Of a stretch of 64,000 bases of DNA, positions 2,421 to 50,440 are shown one piece after another; the stretch's first letter is position 1, and every line of letters starts with the position of its first letter. The position numbers were made by a program, and so were the translations under genes. Below the pieces are notes generated by a model, which saw nothing but the letters and a program-made list of their open reading frames with translations, did no database searches and was not told the DNA's origin. The stretch is taken from NCBI GenBank assembly GCA_031835245.2, contig JAVKOQ020000113.1:62001-126000 (forward strand), written 5' to 3'. This DNA is from Balamuthia mandrillaris (taxonomy: Eukaryota).

Positions 2421-4722
2421 AAAAAGAGAAAAGAATGAAGAAAGGAATGAAGAAAGAGTTGGTTATGTTGGAGTAAACGAATATAGAGATCATGGGCAGC
2501 AAGTTGGAAGTATGGAAGTTCTTCTACATTCCATCAACACCTTTCACTTGTGATAGTTAACAATTAGGAAGGCATCGAGGATGAGGGAATAAGAGAAGTA
2601 AATGTACACTGAGTATGTATAGTGCTTACTTTTTATGTAGTGTTTAGTGTTGCTCCTTGAGCAAATGAACTTTTTATTGTAATAAGGTTGATAGGGAACA
2701 ACCTAATAGACATTAACTTGATAGGTGTAAGGAAAAGACCTTTAATAGAGTGAAAGAAAGAAGTATATATACAAGGAGAGATAGGAATAGGTATTCTGGG
2801 AGAGTGGTATAACATTATTATTATTACTACCTTAGACAATAGAATATCTTTTGCTCAAGTATATTTAGAATTAAATAGATTGAAAAACAAAATCTGTACC
2901 AACAATCAGTTATTTATTACTTTATCAAATGTTCTTAGGTTCTAAGCTAAAGAAAGCTCCAGGGAAAGCAGGAAAAAGATCTTTAGAATGGCTTAGTGTC
3001 AATAAAAGATCAATGATGGCTAATGTTAAGTTCTCATAATTTCCAATGCTTTTGCCCTTCATCAAAAAGCTCCTTTGTAGCTTTTTTTGCTCTATTTCTT
3101 TATTTATTAATTTGCAAAAAATAGTACTAAGAAAAGAGGCAAGAGAGTGATTGTTTCTAATGCATTAAATTGGCTCAAAAAGAAAGAAACAACAAGAAAC
3201 AACATAAAAGAAAAAAATGACAAGAAAGAAAGAAACCTTATCTTATCAGGTTATGGCAGTTTGTACTACAAAGTTACTATCATCAAGTGAAAAGAAATGC
3301 TAGACAAAGTACAAAAAAAATAGAACTATGCAAGTGATGTTATGCATCTAATTGGATTGAACTTTCTATTACTCTTGAATATCAAGTATATCACTTGGTG
3401 ACAATTAATTCTGTGGTTGTAGCTCTTCTCACTGAGCAAGTGAGAATATTGTGGCTAGTTTTATCACATTTGCAACTTTATGTTTGCCACCTCATTCTCC
3501 TCCTTTTCCACCACTGTTATTGCCACTGTGCCTGTGAGTAAGAGCCCAAGCTTTGGTGGTTGACTTATGGATTTGCAAGGAAGGAACATAGCAATGGAAA
3601 TAGGTGTTAAAAAAACTCCAAAGTAATCACCTTCACCTGGGACACTTATAAGCTTTCTCATCAAAACAAAAACAGTGAGAAGGATATAGTCTGTGGCATG
3701 GATATTCAGCCCGTGGCACCTGTAGTTAGGATGTTCAGCCTGCTGGAAGGATATTGGCCTGGTAAAGATATGGCGTGTGAGAGAGATATTCAGCCTGCAA
3801 TAGAGAGTTTCGGCCTGTGACACAGATGTGTGGGGATAGGGCCTGCTGCATGGCTCTTCAGCCTGCAGCACAGATATAAGGCCTGTTGTATGGCTATTTG
3901 GCGCAAGAGGATATCAAGGGACAGCATCCTGTTAAGGAAGATTGACAGCATCCTGGGATTGGGTATCATTGAGGGGCAGTGTCTTGTCTTTGAGGAGGAG
4001 GAGCATCGTCCTGTGGAACTTGGTGAGGAGGAGTGGTAGCATCCTTGTTGAGGACAGCATGATGCTTAGGAGCATTCCATGGGAGGAGTATCATCCTGGC
4101 AACAAAGGGCGGCCTGTAAAAGAGGAGTGGTGGTGCTAGCACCCCTTTGAGAAAGAGGAGCAGCGTGATGTCCAAGAAGAGGAACATCCTGCCAGGGGCC
4201 GCCTCCTGTTGTGCACAGTTGTTTGAGAAGAAAGAATACATTGGTTGGCTCTTAACTTCAACTCCACTCAAGAAGGGAAAAGCACCAAGAAGAAGAAGTT
4301 TTTTGGACCACTAAAAGTGAAGGAAAGTGACTGGCCAAAATCACAGAAAGGACATACATCATCTCTAAGCACACAAATCCCAACCCCACTACTGCACTAT
4401 GGTAGCGAGCAGAGCTTGTGGGTTGTTTTTTTCAGGAGGCATTGAGGTTAGCATCCAAAAAAAAAAATCAAGCCATCCTTTCCACGTTGAGTGCCTTTCC
4501 TGATTTCAACACAAAAGAGGGGTCAACATTCTGGTATCTCAACCAAAGGAAACAAATAGGTCTTTTTTGTGCCCGTAGTAACACACAACAAAAGGACTTG
4601 GCGTGTGACTTTATAGAGTGGCCCACACCACCAGAGCAAAAATCTTGGAAACTTGAGTCACTAAAATAAAGCAAAATTAGTAAAAGGAAAACAAAAAAAC
4701 AGACACAAAAAATAACCCACCT

Positions 4723-4840
4723 CCGGCGTGCCTAATCACGGCTTATCTTACGACTCGCTATAAGCAACGGTGCCGGCACCAAAGCAACCTTACCGCCTAC
4801 CGCCCCCTCACAGAGGAGGAGGAGGAGGTGGTAAGTGCTT
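4723..4840 (-). ncRNA. Putative omega-RNA scaffold of Fanzor copy 1
   Basis: Same hairpins as 48876-48993; overlaps the ORF 3' end as in TnpB/Fanzor loci. Confidence 0.6.
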
Positions 4841-6548
4841 GTAAAGTGAAAAAGCGGATCAAGATGTTTCGGGCGGCGTTGGCATCTCGATCCGCCTGGT
4901 AGCCACACTCGGGTTGAGGGCACCGAAAGGTCTTGTTTCCCCCCAACTGGTGGTGGACTTGGCCGCACTTGCCGCAGGTCTTGGAGGTGTATTCCTCATC
5001 GCAGAGGCAGACCGTACAGGACGGAAATTGCTGGGCCTTGTTGAGGAGCCTCTGCCTGAAGCGATAGTGGGACCAGGTGAGCATGGCTCTGGCCGTTCGC
5101 GAGCCAATGCGGCGGTGGCCTCGCCGCACCATCTGCTGGCTCCTGAACTCTGGCAGAAGGATGAGGGAGAAGTTCCTGACCAACCAAGACACGAGCTTCT
5201 TGTGGAGGTCATCCACCAGGTTGCGGATCCTCTGGCGAAGCCGAGCAGCGGCCCTTCGGAGACGGCGCCGTTGTCTGTGGTTGACCTTGGTGCCCTTACT
5301 CTGCATGCGGTCCAGGCGGTGGCACAGCTTGCCTATCTCGTTGATGTCCGCTTTGCCCCACTCGGTGACCTCCCCGCAGCCGTTGTAGGTGGTCATGAAT
5401 GTGCGCACTCCTGGATCCAAGGCGATGATGCCTGCCTCTCTCCTTCGGTGCTCACGGGCTTGGCTCTCGCCCATGAGCTTCAAAGGCTGAGGCACGCAGA
5501 GGTAGTAATGGCCCAGTCGAGTGTCCTTCACCAGACGAACGGCATAGAGCACCTCTGACGGAACTTTGTAGTTCTTGTCCCTCGCTTTGATTCGCGCCTC
5601 CCCGAAGAAGAGTTGGCGGATAGAGCTGTTGTGGTTCCACTCCCTGGCTTGGATGCTGAGAGACTGGCTCTTGTCCTTCCTACCACGGAACTTCATCTGG
5701 AATCCAGTCGTGCCTCTGCCCGCCGCCAAGCTGCTTTTCACGCCGTTGAAGAAATCATCGACAGCGTCACTCCGAATGAATCGAGGAGTTTCCAACACCC
5801 ACGCAAGGCTCTTGTCCTCTCCCTTGAAATTGCTGTTATTTAGGAATTTCTTCCTGACTTGTTCCTTCATCTCATCACGAGGCATTCCTTGATGTTCACG
5901 ATGGAACTCCACGGCCTTGTTGTAGGTCCATCGTACTGTGCCGAACCACTTGGCCAACGTCTTCTTTTGTTCCGGGCGCGGATAAAGGCGGATCTTCTCC
6001 ACTCGCCCCACTACCGGTTTCTCCTCTCCGTTCTTGCCTTTTTTGGTAAGCTGTACGGCTGGGCGAGACGGAACGAGTCCCTCGATGAGGCCTAACAAGC
6101 CTTTCTGGTTTTTCTCCTCTTCTTCCTTCTCCTTCTCCTTCTCCTTCTCCTTCTCCTCTTCCTCTTCCTCCTTCTTCTCCTTCTCCTTCTTCTCCTCCTC
6201 CTCCTCCAACACCTTTTCTCCGTTAGGAATGTGCTTGCAGGCGGTGAACCATCCTGAACCACAGGCAAAGGGTTCTTCCAAGCACAAGGCTTCCGGGCGT
6301 ATTAATCTTCTCCCGATTAAGCTGGAAAACTGGTTCCAAAAGGGCTGGGCGGGTGCAGCCTGCGGCCTTCCACGCTTCTGTGCCCTTGCCTGAGGTGCCG
6401 CTGGGGCGTTTTCCGCTCTTCTTTTCCGAGTAGCAGTGGAAGTAGCAGAAGTAGTGGCGCGACCCCCTTCCTTGTGGACCCGACCGAAGTGGATGGCCAA
6501 CCCGTGAGAGGTAGCAAACTTTTTTCCGCACTGTGGGCAACTTGCCAT
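4797..6548 (-). CDS. Fanzor2 / TnpB-family RNA-guided endonuclease, 583 aa, intronless
   Basis: TnpB-type N-terminal KIRLYP..WFGTVRWTYN; RuvC-I ALDPGVRTF; RuvC-II LLPEF; MLTWSHYRFRQRL; Zn ribbon CGKC..CPQPEC; RuvC-III DRDANAARNI. Confidence 0.95.
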   Translation of the reverse strand: MASCPQCGKKFATSHGLAIHFGRVHKEGGRATTSATSTATRKRRAENAPAAPQARAQKRGRPQAAPAQPFWNQFSSLIGRRLIRPEALCLEEPFACGSGWFTACKHIPNGEKVLEEEEEKKEKEKKEEEEEEKEKEKEKEKEEEEKNQKGLLGLIEGLVPSRPAVQLTKKGKNGEEKPVVGRVEKIRLYPRPEQKKTLAKWFGTVRWTYNKAVEFHREHQGMPRDEMKEQVRKKFLNNSNFKGEDKSLAWVLETPRFIRSDAVDDFFNGVKSSLAAGRGTTGFQMKFRGRKDKSQSLSIQAREWNHNSSIRQLFFGEARIKARDKNYKVPSEVLYAVRLVKDTRLGHYYLCVPQPLKLMGESQAREHRRREAGIIALDPGVRTFMTTYNGCGEVTEWGKADINEIGKLCHRLDRMQSKGTKVNHRQRRRLRRAAARLRQRIRNLVDDLHKKLVSWLVRNFSLILLPEFRSQQMVRRGHRRIGSRTARAMLTWSHYRFRQRLLNKAQQFPSCTVCLCDEEYTSKTCGKCGQVHHQLGGNKTFRCPQPECGYQADRDANAARNILIRFFTLQALTTSSSSSVRGR

Positions 6549-7289
6549 TCAGGCCAGCTTCCAGCAGCGTTGTGGAAGAGGCGCACAGAGGTTCGTGATG
6601 CTGTTCTTTTTTAAACAAAAGAAATCATTAGTGAGTGGTTGGTAACAATTTTTTTTTCCATCATCAAAAAATGTAGTGAGCGAGCAGAGAAAAAAGAACG
6701 CTACCTTTTCAATCGGAGCAGTGCCCCTGCCTGCGGCTGAACCGCTTCGGTTTCCACCTCTGCCTCCTTCGGCTGGTTTCCTCCTTGTGTAGTAGAAGCG
6801 TAGCAATGAGAAATACGGTGGTGCGTGGAGCTTCGTGGATGTGTGTGTCTGTGTGTTTACTTTTGAAAAGAAAGAAATGAAAAGAAAAGAAGAAAAGAAA
6901 AGAAAAGAAGAGAAGAAAAGAAAACGAGTAGCAGAAAAGTGTCAAGGCGAATGACGAGTACCAAAAGTTTATTGGCGGCAGCAGCAGCATGAGCATCCAT
7001 TCCGTACACCCCAACCCACCACTTTGCCTTCAAAGGCGTGGGAGAAGGAAGGGTTGTTTTGGCGGGAAACATGCTCATTGGCCCAAAAGACTAATGTCGT
7101 GATTTCTTTTTTCGTTGTCCTTAGATCTTATGATCTTTGCGCCGCCTTATCATTGATATATGCACTGGGACTTTATCCAGGCTTTCCATTATACCTACGA
7201 GGTTGAGGGTCCAAGCTTGGCAATAATAGTTTTGGGTTTGCGACGCCAAAGAAAGAGAGAGAGCAAGAGAGCAAGAGAGCAAGAGGAAG

Positions 7290-46432: not shown

Positions 46433-46516
46433 GCAAGAGTGCCCGAGCTGGTCAAAGGGGGTAGACTTAAGATCTACTGCGGTAACGCTTCGTGGGTTCG
46501 AACCCCACCTCTTGCA
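46433..46516 (+). tRNA. tRNA-Leu(TAA)
   Basis: Acceptor GCAAGAG/CTCTTGC, anticodon arm GTAGA-CTTAAGA-TCTAC, long variable arm, T arm GTGGG-TTCGAAC-CCCAC, T5 terminator just downstream. Confidence 0.95.
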
Positions 46517-47179
46517 ACATTCTTTTTATACTTTCTCAATTCAGGGATTTCGAGAATCGTGTCGTCCCAAGAGTTTTGCCTGGCAGGGTTGCCCCTAAGG
46601 CGGCGCAAAGATCATAAGATCTAAGGACAACGAAAAAAGAAATCACGACATTAGTCTTTTGGGCCAATGAGCATGTTTCCCGCCAAAACAACCCTTCCTT
46701 CTCCCACGTCTCTGAAGGCAAAGTGGTAGGGTGGGGTGTACGGAATGGATGCTCATGCTGCTGCTGCCGCCAATAAACTTTTGGTACTCGTCATTCGCCT
46801 TGACACTTTTCTGCTACTCGTTTTCTTTTCTTCTCTTCTTTTCTTTTCATTTCTTTCTTTTCAAAAGTAAACACACAGACACACACATCCACGAAGCTCC
46901 ACGCACCACCGTATTTCTCATTGCTACGCTTCTACTACACAAGGAGGAAACCAGCGGAAGGAGGCAGAGGTGGAAACCGAAGCGGTTCAGCCGCAGGCAG
47001 GGGCACTGCTCCGATTGAAAAGGTAGTGTTCTTTTTTCTCTGCTCGCTCACTACATTTTTTGATGATGGAAAAAAAAATGTGTTACCAACCTCTCGCTAA
47101 TGATTTCTTTTGTTTAAAAAAGAACAGCATCACGAACCTCTGTGCGCCTCTTCCACAACGCTGCTGGAAGCTGGCCTGA

Positions 47180-48919
47180 ATGGCAAGTTGCCCACAGTGC
47201 GGAAAAAAGTTTGCTACCTCTCACGGGTTGGCCATCCACTTCGGTCGGGTCCACAAGGAAGGGGGTCGCGCCACTACTTCTGCTACTTCCACTGCTACTC
47301 GGAAAAGAAGAGCGGAAAACGCCCCAGCGGCACCTCAGGCAAGGGCACAGAAGCGTGGAAGGCCGCAGGCTGCACCCGCCCAGCCCTTTTGGAACCAGTT
47401 TTCCAGCTTAATCGGGAGAAGATTAATACGCCCGGAAGCCTTGTGCTTGGAAGAACCCTTTGCCTGTGGTTCAGGATGGTTCACCGCCTGCAAGCACATT
47501 CCTAACGGAGAAAAGGTGTTGGAGGAGGAGGAGGAGAAGAAGGAGAAGGAGAAGAAGGAGGAAGAGGAAGAGGAGAAGGAGAAGGAGAAGGAAGAAGAGG
47601 AGAAAAACCAGAAAGGCTTGTTAGGCCTCATCGAGGGACTCGTTCCGTCTCGCCCAGCCGTACAGCTCACCAAAAAAGGCAAGAACGGAGAGGAGAAACC
47701 GGTAGTGGGGCGAGTGGAGAAGATCCGCCTTTATCCGCGCTCAGAACAAAAGAAGACGCTGGCCAAGTGGTTCGGCACAGTACGATGGACCTACAACAAG
47801 GCCGTGGAGTTCCATCGTGAACATAAAGGAATGCCTCTTAAGGAGATGAAGGAACAAGTCAGGGAGAAATTCCTGAATAACGGCAATTTCAACGGAGAGG
47901 ACAAGAGCCTTGCGTGGGTGTTGGAAACTCCTCGATACATTCGCAGTGACGCTGTCGATGATTTCTTCAACGGCGTGAAAAGCAGCTTGGCGGCGGGCAG
48001 AGGCACGACTGGATTCCAGATGAAGTTCCGTGGTAGGAAGGACAAGAGCCAGTCTCTCAGCATCCAAGCCAGGGAGTGGAACCACAACAACTCTATCCGC
48101 CAACTCTTCTTCGGGGAGGCGCGAATCAAAGCGAGGGACAAGAACTACAAAGTTCCGTCAGAGGTGCTCTATGCCGTTCGTCTGGTGAAGGACACTCGAC
48201 TGGGCCATTACTACCTCTGCGTGCCTCAGCCTTTGAAGCTCATGGGCGAGAGCCAAGCCCGTGAGCACCGAAGGAGAGAGGCAGGCATCATCGCCTTGGA
48301 TCCAGGAGTGCGCACATTCATGACCACCTACAACGGCTGCGGGGAGGTCACCGAGTGGGGCAAAGCGGACATCAACGAGATAGGCAAGCTGTGCCACCGC
48401 CTGGATCGCATGCAGAGTAAGGGCACCAAGGGCAACCACAGGCAACGGCGCCGTCTCCGAAGGGCCGCTGCTCGGCTTCGCCAGAGGATCCGCAACCTGG
48501 TGGATGACCTCCACAAGAAGCTCGTGTCTTGGTTGGTCAGGAACTTCTCCCTCATCCTTCTGCCAGAGTTCAGGAGCCAGCAGATGGTGCGGCGAGGCCA
48601 CCGCCGCATTGGCTCACGAACGGCCAGAGCCATGCTCACCTGGTCCCACTATCGCTTCAGGCAGAGGCTCCTCAACAAGGCCCAGCAATTTCCGTCCTGT
48701 ACGGTCTGCCTCTGCGATGAGGAATACACCTCCAAGACCTGCGGCAAGTGCGGCCAAGTCCACCACCAGTTGGGGGGAAACAAGACCTTTCGGTGCCCTC
48801 AACCCGAGTGTGGCTACCAGGCGGATCGAGATGCCAACGCCGCCCGAAACATCTTGATCCGCTTTTTCACTTTACAAGCACTTACCACCTCCTCCTCCTC
48901 CTCTGTGAGGGGGCGGTAG
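47180..48919 (+). CDS. Fanzor2 / TnpB-family RNA-guided endonuclease, 579 aa
   Basis: Same motifs as copy 1; RuvC D, E and D all present. Confidence 0.95.
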   Translation: MASCPQCGKKFATSHGLAIHFGRVHKEGGRATTSATSTATRKRRAENAPAAPQARAQKRGRPQAAPAQPFWNQFSSLIGRRLIRPEALCLEEPFACGSGWFTACKHIPNGEKVLEEEEEKKEKEKKEEEEEEKEKEKEEEEKNQKGLLGLIEGLVPSRPAVQLTKKGKNGEEKPVVGRVEKIRLYPRSEQKKTLAKWFGTVRWTYNKAVEFHREHKGMPLKEMKEQVREKFLNNGNFNGEDKSLAWVLETPRYIRSDAVDDFFNGVKSSLAAGRGTTGFQMKFRGRKDKSQSLSIQAREWNHNNSIRQLFFGEARIKARDKNYKVPSEVLYAVRLVKDTRLGHYYLCVPQPLKLMGESQAREHRRREAGIIALDPGVRTFMTTYNGCGEVTEWGKADINEIGKLCHRLDRMQSKGTKGNHRQRRRLRRAAARLRQRIRNLVDDLHKKLVSWLVRNFSLILLPEFRSQQMVRRGHRRIGSRTARAMLTWSHYRFRQRLLNKAQQFPSCTVCLCDEEYTSKTCGKCGQVHHQLGGNKTFRCPQPECGYQADRDANAARNILIRFFTLQALTTSSSSSVRGR

Positions 48920-48993
48920 GCGGTAAGGTTGCTTTGGTGCCGGCACCGTTGCTTATAGCGAGTCGTAAGACAAGCCGTGATTAGGCACGCCGG
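48876..48993 (+). ncRNA. Putative omega-RNA scaffold of Fanzor copy 2
   Basis: Long hairpin 48876-48934 across the stop codon, then ggtg-ccgg-cacc, gtc-GTAA-gac and cgtg-attagg-cacg. Confidence 0.62.
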
Positions 48994-49218
48994 AGGTGGG
49001 TTGTTTTTTGTGTCTGTTTTTTTGTTTTCCTTTTTACTAATTTTGCTTTATTTTCGTTGTCCCATTGATCGGCTTGATCTTTGCGCCGCCTTAGGGTTGC
49101 CCCACAAAAACCCTAACCCTTGCCGCTGAGCGAGTCGTAAGAAGGGATGGAATTTATTTTCTGAATCATTTTTTTTATTATTATTAACGTTAATAATAAT
49201 ATAAGTAATGTGTTACTA

Positions 49219-50440
49219 CTACGAGTTGTTGTTCTGTGCGCGAATGCTGCCAAGAAAAGCATCCACAGACTCAGTTGTAGTAGGCAGTGTTGCAGCTGGT
49301 GGCTGTGATTGCGAAGCATGGTTATAGTAGGCAGATTGTTGGGCATAGTAGTAGTTGAAGGAGGGAGCGGTTGGCGTTGAGGTAGCGGTAGCATAAGCAG
49401 AAGAGGCTGCCATGCTCGTGGCTGGTTGTGTGTATGGAAAGGAGGGCTGCTGTGACATTTGTCCAGAGTAGGAGGGAGGAGGATAATAAGGTGGTTGCGA
49501 AGATTGTGACGGAGGTTGTGTGGGATAAGGGGCATAATGGTACGAAGGATAAGGGTAAGGATAGCCATAAGAAGGATCATATGAATAGTGCATAGGATAG
49601 GCATTACTGGCATCGTAGTTTGTGATAGTAGGACCGGAAGAAGAGGAAGGAGACACCTGTGCTGCTGGCGTTGATTCAGGTTTGGGTGTAGAAGGTGCAA
49701 AGGAAGTGGTAGGTTGTGGTACAGTTGTGTTGACTTGAGGGCGTGCTTTGGTTGTTTCATTTTCGTAACTATAATGAAACTCTTCAGTGTCACTGTCCTC
49801 AGCCTTGTTTGCTTCCGCAGATAGCCGTTGTTGCTCCATTTTTGCTTTTTGCTCAGCCTCTTCTTTATGTCGTCTCTCTTTTTCTCGTGCTTCCGCCTCT
49901 TCTTGTTGCCTCCGCTTCCGCTCTTCCATCTTTCTCTTTTCTCGCTCCTCTCTTTCCAAACGAAGCTTTTCTTGCCGTTCTTCTTCCTCTTGTTGATGGG
50001 CCAGATCTTCCTGCAGCTCTTGCAGGTTCTTCTTTTCCTCACCTTTTTGTTCTGCTCGTTCTTTGATCTTTCTTAGCCTTTCAGCGTTTTTCATCTTGCG
50101 CTGCTCTTTCAACAGCATGTGTTGCTCTCTTCCTTCTTTTGTCTGCTGTATCAGCTGATCTAGTACTCTTAAGTCCTCCCGTTTCTTTGCTTCCTGCATT
50201 CCTTCCGTATCTATTTCCTTGAGTGCCGCACGTTCCCATTCTCTTCTTTCTTGTTCTCGTTGGAGGTCTTTTGAATAGAATTCTTTTGACTCCGTGACCT
50301 CCTTCTCTTCCCTATCCCAGCTTTTCTTTTCAAAGTCTACCAAGAAATTGGCTCCTTTCTTCTTGCTTCCATCGTCAGTAATGTCCTCTCCAGCCGCTAT
50401 TTTCTGATATAGTTAGAGTCACAAAGAAAGCGAGCGAGCG

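What the first reader, a model, noticed from the sequence alone, without database searches (positions are those of the whole stretch)
48957..49142. 14 nt of the element's RNA region match the flank 35 bp outside the element
Seen: AGCGAGTCGTAAGA occurs inside the element (48957-48970, also in copy 1) and in host flank at 49129-49142, same strand. Upstream context is loosely similar too (aaggttgc..accgttgc versus agggttgc..acccttgc in the rebuilt empty site). A 14-mer this close is unlikely by chance. Inference, three options: an internally encoded guide directing insertion near its target (CAST-like); insertion into a relic of a related RNA; or a short templated repair patch. Caveat: an active nuclease would still see this target after insertion.
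Basis: partly seen in the sequence, partly recalled or inferred. Interest (0 to 1): 0.72.

Follow-up and report, generated by a model that had tools for sequence, protein, structure and literature searches.

The report
Transposon snippet patched into flanking DNA
A 14-letter stretch from an amoeba transposon that carries an RNA-guided nuclease gene also appears just outside it, and it is likely a small DNA-repair copy of the RNA's predicted structural part (or chance), not a guide steering insertion.

Summary
The match is real: 48957-48970 = 49129-49142, also in copy 1. It is rare: 0 of 582 control stretches reach 12 nt against the RNA region; 0 of 95 related loci exceed 12 nt. The element is a multi-copy Fanzor2-type nuclease gene in a TIR transposon with a 10-bp target duplication; closest proteins are named Balamuthia mandrillaris. 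The guide reading is weak: the catalytic triad is intact, no transposase is carried, the element's own DNA would be the better target, and a 14-mer should occur under once per genome. The 14-mer probably lies in the omega-RNA scaffold, upstream of a conserved strand at 48984-48993; this boundary is inferred and a covariance model did not confirm it. An apparently element-free allele in another sample differs at 5 of the last 7 bases of the flank 14-mer, and two more samples carry another allele. The claimed upstream similarity is not significant. Best reading: an allele-specific templated repair patch (0.45); chance 0.33; guide 0.09. Interest is low to modest.

The parts
46596..49093 (+). TIR DNA transposon (copy 2), 2498 bp, carrying only a Fanzor2-type gene
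   Evidence: Left end fixed by copy 1; loose ends at 49094 in 10, 5 and 1 contigs of X2, X12, X13
46596..46636 (+). Left terminal inverted repeat (about 41-43 bp, 84% to the right one)
   Evidence: blastn of element against window
49051..49093 (-). Right terminal inverted repeat
46586..46595 (+). 10-bp direct repeat, left copy (likely target site duplication)
   Evidence: sequence; one insertion only
49094..49103 (+). 10-bp direct repeat, right copy
   Evidence: sequence
47180..48919 (+). Fanzor2-type ORF, 579 aa: D374 (DPG), P462 at the usual RuvC-II glutamate (assignment inferred), E514 (ExxT), C4 zinc finger, D551
   Evidence: Pfam PF07282, PF12323, PF01385; motifs; invariant columns; best PDB hit 9b0l
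48876..48934 (+). Long predicted hairpin across the stop codon (5' part of the putative omega-RNA)
   Evidence: fold of 48876-48995, z = -2.9
48928..48993 (+). Putative omega-RNA scaffold core; closing or pseudoknot pairing of 48937-48944 with 48984-48993; end inferred at about 48989
   Evidence: variant copy keeps the 3' strand (table 5c); not confirmed by model R1
48957..48970 (+). Internal 14-mer: 3' arm of one small predicted hairpin plus a GNRA-loop hairpin
   Evidence: copy 1 changes the closing pair from G-C to G-U at 48971
49129..49142 (+). Flank copy of the 14-mer (likely repair patch; last 7 bases differ at 5 places in sample X12)
49136..49222 (.). Block that differs between alleles (17 substitutions against X12; another allele in X1 and X2)
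49176..49201 (.). Perfect 26-nt AT-rich palindrome, the longest in the window (next 16)
   Evidence: the X1/X2 loose end shows one arm only
46433..46516 (+). tRNA-Leu(TAA), 69 bases upstream of the target duplication
4660..7149 (-). Copy 1 of the element, 98% identical, lacks the right TIR; holds the 14-mer at 4759-4746

Best explanation
The internal 14-mer is likely part of the folded scaffold of a Fanzor2 omega-RNA, and the copy 35 bases outside the transposon is likely a short templated repair patch, private to this allele, copied from the element 172 bases away. Shown: the match, the element's anatomy, and that other samples carry other sequence at this place. Inferred: a break near the right end (made by transposition or by the nuclease; not distinguishable here) was repaired by a strand that annealed through about 7 shared bases at 48957-48963, copied about 7 more from the element, and rejoined the flank. 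The patch would have no function.
For: (1) Match beyond local chance. (2) The X12 contig, read as element-free, has 0 substitutions in 49093-49135 (43 nt), 5 in 49136-49142 (7 nt), 8 in 49143-49175 and 2 in 49223-49500 (278 nt); 5 of 7 has p = 0.011 at the rate of the adjoining 33 nt. The bases that differ are those that extend the match from 7 to 14. (3) X1 and X2 contigs leave the window sequence before 49223 with 160 and 154 loose letters, so the place is not a conserved host RNA or target; no Rfam family reaches its cut-off there. (4) Scaffold placement: in 13 hand-picked relatives a 5-bp long-range helix ending just before the terminal CG covaries strongly (95% paired, 0 of 500 shuffles); the best site under my rule in this element ends at 48989, 19 bases past the 14-mer; duplex -6.9 against -2.2 kcal/mol for the 48960 alternative; a variant copy in X2 replaces 48960-48981 with another self-pairing segment but keeps the 11 bases after it. 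(5) Filler DNA of this size is common at transposon breaks: mean 13 bp in 58 of 94 rice excisions (PMC4423477, passages). (6) A 26-nt palindrome 34 bases further on may be a second template-switch mark.
Against: Direction is unknown: no outgroup shows which allele is ancestral. The block stays divergent beyond the 14-mer (8 of 33), which a 7-base patch does not explain. The rice study finds insertions generally precise and filler at excision junctions, whereas this patch is 25 bases beyond an intact target duplication. The scaffold end is uncertain: the rule was written after seeing the data and 42 of 300 shuffles reach the same score; a stricter rule found nothing in the window; model R1 gave no significant hit; the 48989 end reads ACG where relatives have GCG; the X2 variant starts to diverge exactly at 48960 and is one contig of depth 5.75.
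Confidence: 0.45

Rival explanations
1. Chance: a fast-changing intergenic stretch happens to share 14 bases with the element.
For: 4 of 582 control stretches share 14 nt or more with some part of the element; the element is multi-copy (12 annotated proteins on contigs of 12 different lengths) and the scan reads many windows; the place has at least three alleles; no similarity beyond the 14-mer.
Against: Donor only 172 bases away: 0 of 582 controls reach 12 nt against the RNA region, 0 of 95 related loci exceed 12 nt in the same geometry; the substitutions against X12 cluster in the match (p = 0.011).
Confidence: 0.33
2. Internal fixed guide: the scaffold ends at 48960, the next bases are a guide, and the flank is a TAM-like 4 nt plus a 10-nt seed match used to choose or cut the site.
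For: Related scaffolds end in AGCG/GGCG before variable sequence and the 14-mer splits as AGCG + 10 nt; a 6-bp pairing (2 G-U) with the loop at 48903-48908 is possible; the X2 variant diverges from 48960 on; Fanzor2 shows minimal activity with 7-9-nt guides (PMC10432273, passages).
Against: The element's own DNA has the same 4 upstream bases and the whole guide, so it would be the better target; triad intact, no transposase in the element; 0.39 exact 14-mer sites expected in 52 Mb against many dispersed copies with unlike flanks (agreement 0.45-0.54); weak pairing (-2.2 kcal/mol); known TIR-borne Fanzors take the guide from beyond the target duplication (PMC10711439 section 27); no such match near copy 1 (best 9 nt; its right flank is lost).
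Confidence: 0.09
3. Relic: the element landed in the remains of an older related omega-RNA or ghost copy.
For: Short look-alike words upstream; unanchored local alignment p = 0.039.
Against: Anchored extension not significant either way (123 of 400; 400 of 400); rebuilt empty site folds no better than shuffles (z = -0.27); blastn finds no other fragment of the element there; 14 of 14 identity beside no similarity does not look like decay.
Confidence: 0.07
4. Assembly or polishing error in this record at 49136-49222.
For: No contig of the five DNA-type or contig runs laid (X1, X2, X3, X12, X13) shows the window's letters across 49136-49170.
Against: The tool drops some contigs, so holes prove nothing; the other samples differ from each other too; the window allele keeps a stop codon at the same place as X1/X2.
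Confidence: 0.06

Closest known systems
Fanzor2* of Chloropicon primus and molluscs (Fanzor2 in cut-and-paste TIR transposons; PMC10711439, passages and sections 26-27 read)
   Same: Fanzor2-type nuclease inside a TIR element with a target duplication and no IS607 recombinase; pseudoknotted RNA at the gene's 3' end is predicted.
   Different: Amoebozoan host; 10-bp duplication; the predicted scaffold here seems to end about 100 bases inside the right TIR, before a T-rich tract, whereas the paper predicts TIR and duplication inside the scaffold. Not measured here.
ApmFNuc / mimivirus IS607 Fanzor2 (PDB 9b0l, 'TnpB-like protein L79'; the link of that name to ApmFNuc is recalled)
   Same: Best solved-structure match (E 3e-26); rearranged RuvC with an alternative glutamate (PMC10530073, passages).
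   Different: That element carries an IS607 TnpA; this one carries none.
Fanzor1 in non-autonomous MuDr-like elements with 9-bp duplications (PMC3627910, passages)
   Same: TIRs, long duplication, no transposase of its own.
   Different: Those are fungal Fanzor1; this protein looks like Fanzor2; no partner transposase was identified here.
Filler DNA / templated insertions at double-strand breaks (PMC4423477 passages; PMC11724301 abstract only)
   Same: Short exact copy of nearby sequence next to a transposon, size in the reported range.
   Different: Reported mostly at excision junctions or as inverted fold-backs; here direct orientation, 25 bases beyond an intact duplication.
CRISPR-associated transposons (recalled, no call)
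   Same: Only the idea of an element-encoded guide near an insertion.
   Different: They use a nuclease-dead effector with TnsB/TnsC/TniQ and insert at a fixed distance; none of this is seen.

Membership tests
Fanzor2 / TnpB | D-X(125,275)-[TS][TS]xx-C4 zinc finger-X(5,50)-RD motif (PMC3627910) | tested here: met
   D374, T517-S518, C4 finger, R550-D551 in P0001
Fanzor2 / TnpB | DPG motif and rearranged RuvC-II (proline at the usual glutamate, alternative glutamate about 45 residues on) | tested here: met
   DPG 374, PEF 462, E514 invariant in 35 of 35 aligned proteins; the placing of P462 is by motif, no structure was predicted
Fanzor2 / TnpB | Closer to IS607 TnpB/Fanzor2 than to Fanzor1 | tested here: inconclusive
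   Best PDB hit 9b0l, none of 14 hits is named Fanzor1; HTH_OrfB_IS605 present; no tree with labelled references was built
Fanzor2 / TnpB | 3' omega-RNA with a pseudoknot next to the guide | tested here: inconclusive
   Covarying in 13 relatives; candidate in this element at 48937-41 with 48984-88, null 42 of 300; model R1 no hit
Fanzor2 / TnpB | RNA-guided, TAM-dependent DNA cleavage | not testable with these tools
   needs a biochemical assay
Fanzor2* (TIR-borne) | TIRs plus target duplication, no IS607 TnpA | tested here: met
   no room or ORF for a recombinase; duplication seen at one insertion
Fanzor2* (TIR-borne) | TIR and duplication form part of the scaffold; guide lies beyond | tested here: inconclusive
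   A weaker candidate end at 49088 (score 4.9 against 5.5); no small-RNA data
CAST-like guided transposon | Nuclease-dead effector | tested here: not met
   D374, E514, D551 all present
CAST-like guided transposon | Transposase machinery in the element | tested here: not met
   one long ORF with TnpB domains only; a transposase in trans is not excluded
CAST-like guided transposon | Guide match at a fixed distance from many insertions | tested here: inconclusive
   Only copy 1 could be checked (best 9 nt; right flank lost); loose ends show 30 bases, short of the +36 position
Templated repair patch (filler DNA) | Short exact copy of nearby sequence | tested here: met
   14 nt, 172 bases apart
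Templated repair patch (filler DNA) | Absent from the pre-event allele, with microhomology at the junction | tested here: inconclusive
   5 of 7 bases differ in X12, first 7 show no substitution, gaps unplaced, direction unknown
Mutator-like element | 9-11-bp duplication (range recalled) and a MURA-type transposase acting on the TIRs | tested here: inconclusive
   10-bp repeat seen once; no transposase found; genome not held

The most novel reading that the evidence does not exclude
This amoeba transposon carries an omega-RNA whose scaffold ends inside the element at 48960, so that its guide is fixed and travels with it, and the Fanzor complex binds a 4+10-nt match to steer a transposase acting in trans: RNA-directed target choice by a eukaryotic transposon, with subfamilies swapping the internal guide.
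Probability: 0.06. Interest if true: 0.85.

Novelty: new member of a known kind. Interest (0 to 1): 0.24.

Why it matters
As a repair patch it is a minor trace of break repair beside a mobile nuclease. The element itself is of some use: a multi-copy, apparently intact Fanzor2 in a TIR transposon of an amoeba, with no paper holding both 'Fanzor' and 'Balamuthia' in the library searched. If its RNA scaffold really ends inside the element, the guide would not change on transposition, unlike the described TIR-borne Fanzors, and the homing model would not explain why the nuclease is kept. That is testable with one small-RNA experiment.

Tried and rejected
No genome is held for this window, so the genome-wide test of flanks could not be run. 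No RNA holder listed. RNA run X22 (about 3 in 100 of its reads): 68 reads laid, none on 49112-49500, no pile of starts or ends; uninformative, since its allele may differ and short RNAs are lost. Holes in contig cover of 49094-49170 in X1, X2, X3, X13 are not counted as absence. Contig depths (element far above flank) are not used as copy number. Telomerase-template idea for the 9-mer at 49111: one hit in 64 kb, about what chance gives (motif recalled). Host small RNA at the empty site: no Rfam hit on the flank (the joined site was not scanned), fold z = -0.27. Single-protein scan of viral contigs found no relative. Pattern scans gave two unrelated loci, L160 and L161. Strict architecture rule: 16 of 62 relatives, none in the window, script stopped there. 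In one search several candidate-end positions in the last table were off by one; I use only the rule hits. Model R1 (13 relatives chosen by eye from 137 anchored of 159 loci): best E = 1.1, not at the RNA region. Earlier scan notes: nothing. Supplementary figures of PMC10711439 (S3, S5: Fanzor2* ends) were not read and bear on the scaffold boundary.

Full report
Observation. The 14-mer stands at 48957-48970, at 49129-49142 and in copy 1 at 4759-4746 (minus strand); one further site with 2 mismatches is at 27203. Against 582 control stretches of 200 nt from the same window, the RNA region 48920-49093 shares at most 11 nt (0 of 582 at 12 or more), while the whole element shares 14 or more with 4 of 582. 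In 95 distinct related loci with enough flank (of 137 anchored, of 159 fetched) the longest match in the same geometry is 12 nt. So the match is unusual, though not out of reach for a multi-copy element in a large scan. The loose upstream likeness does not survive an anchored test (123 of 400 shuffles as good).

The element. It runs 46596-49093, with TIRs of about 42 bp and a 10-bp direct repeat on both sides. The right end is supported by loose ends at 49094 in three runs, with unlike flanks. It encodes one 579-aa protein with TnpB-family domains, an intact D374/E514/D551 triad and the rearranged RuvC of Fanzors (definition from PMC10530073 and PMC10711439, passages). The best solved relative is 9b0l. 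The closest proteins are named Balamuthia mandrillaris; 12 such proteins lie on contigs of 12 different lengths. No transposase is carried. This is the layout called Fanzor2* in PMC10711439. A search for 'Fanzor' with 'Balamuthia' gave 0 papers; the 10 listed papers do not name the organism; subscription papers are largely outside this library.

Guide or scaffold? Relatives show where this clade's RNA ends: a hairpin loop pairs with five bases just before a terminal CG, after which sequence is free. In 13 relatives picked by eye, RNAalifold chose this helix unaided and it covaries (95% of cells paired, 23 double changes, 0 of 500 shuffles; slid controls 22-42%); the set was chosen for having the helix, so this describes the clade and does not test the window. 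PMC10711439 (section 26) shows such a pseudoknot is needed in an IS607 TnpB. In the window three CG-ending candidates exist: 48922, 48960 and 48989. The rule hits 48989, pairing 48937-48941 with 48984-48988; the minimum-energy fold closes a three-hairpin junction with 48940-48944 and 48989-48993. Either puts the 14-mer inside the structure. Distance from the last catalytic motif to the end is 163 bases for 48989 against 151-251 in the 13 relatives; 48960 would give 134. A variant copy in X2 replaces 48960-48981 with a different segment that can pair with itself, and keeps the next 11 bases. Against this: the rule is post hoc and 42 of 300 shuffles match its score; a stricter rule missed the window; the covariance model did not find the region; 48960 reads GCG like the relatives while 48989 does not; and a weaker end at the TIR (49088) is possible. 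I put scaffold at about 0.75.

Even with a boundary at 48960 the guide reading has trouble. The four bases before the 10-nt seed match are the same in the flank and in the element, so each copy would be its own best target. A 14-mer is expected 0.39 times in 52 Mb (size taken from the contig totals of X1 and X3), too few to direct many insertions. The nuclease is not dead. Copy 1 has no match above 9 nt in 250 bases on either side, but it has lost its right end.

Other alleles. One X12 contig aligns to 49093-49500 and has 55 more letters that do not follow the element's end, so I read it as element-free (inference; those letters were not shown). All its 19 substitutions are listed: 0 in 49093-49135, 5 in 49136-49142, 8 in 49143-49175, 4 in 49176-49222, 2 in 49223-49500; 25 gap letters are unplaced. 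Thus the bases that lengthen the match from 7 to 14 are mostly those that differ (p = 0.011 at the adjoining rate). The place is fast-changing, and the flank 14-mer was seen in none of the other samples laid.

Mechanism. Most likely (0.45) a break near the right end was repaired by template switching: the flank's end annealed to the element at about 7 shared bases, copied a few more and returned. Filler of this size is frequent at transposon breaks (58 of 94 rice excisions, mean 13 bp; PMC4423477, passages), and short templated duplications via microhomology are documented in yeast (PMC11724301, abstract). The same rice paper finds insertions mostly precise, and the divergence goes on past the 14-mer, so chance stays a close rival (0.33). 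Guide or target 0.09, relic 0.07, assembly error 0.06. What made the break, and which allele is older, is not shown.

Verdict. A real, probably functionless match beside a new member of a known kind of element. Interest 0.24. The open point worth a test is where this omega-RNA ends. Papers seen: PMC10711439 (passages, sections 26 and 27), PMC10432273, PMC10530073, PMC4423477, PMC3627910 (passages), PMC11724301 (abstract and outline); others as search listings only.

Noticed in passing
window 47741-47938 against copy 1 (residues 188-253): 8 of the 10 amino-acid differences between the two copies fall in 66 of 579 residues, in and after the HTH region (likely REC/WED, near TAM recognition); 3 of 7 synonymous changes fall there. 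P0002, P0003 and P0072 show mixed states at these sites. Could be diversifying selection or recombination between copies.
   Followed up: partly
window 46433-46595: Copy 2 sits 69 bases downstream of a tRNA-Leu gene; copy 1 has no tRNA nearby, so tRNA targeting is not shown.
   Followed up: no
window 49176-49201: Perfect 26-nt palindrome, longest in the window; the X1/X2 allele shows one arm only in the 30 letters given. X12 may keep a degenerate form.
   Followed up: partly
window 48797-49045 (tables 5 and 5c): Internal deletion forms of the element's 3' part in X2 and X12 (48797 to 48925, 48872 to 49035 in both; 48966 to 49045 in X2): likely non-autonomous derivatives.
   Followed up: no
window 48992-48999: Loose ends or contig ends cluster just past the proposed scaffold end in X2, X12 and RNA run X22; may mark copies with another 3' sequence.
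   Followed up: no
window 4660-7149: Copy 1 stops abruptly at the equivalent of 49054, without right TIR; no copy of its left 8-12 flank bases lies downstream in the window.
   Followed up: partly
L081, L082, L085, L090, L098, L099, L105, L106, L111, L012, L119, L154, L084: A clear covarying pseudoknot helix and a GCG end define the omega-RNA boundary for this Fanzor2-like clade; useful for reprogramming them.
   Followed up: yes
L160, 2415-3379: An array of repeated tRNA-arm-like units in front of small ORFs in a viral contig, unrelated to this finding.
   Followed up: no
window 47180-47260: The protein starts with a C2H2-like zinc-finger motif (pattern recalled; not reported by Pfam) followed by an acidic/basic low-complexity tract.
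   Followed up: no
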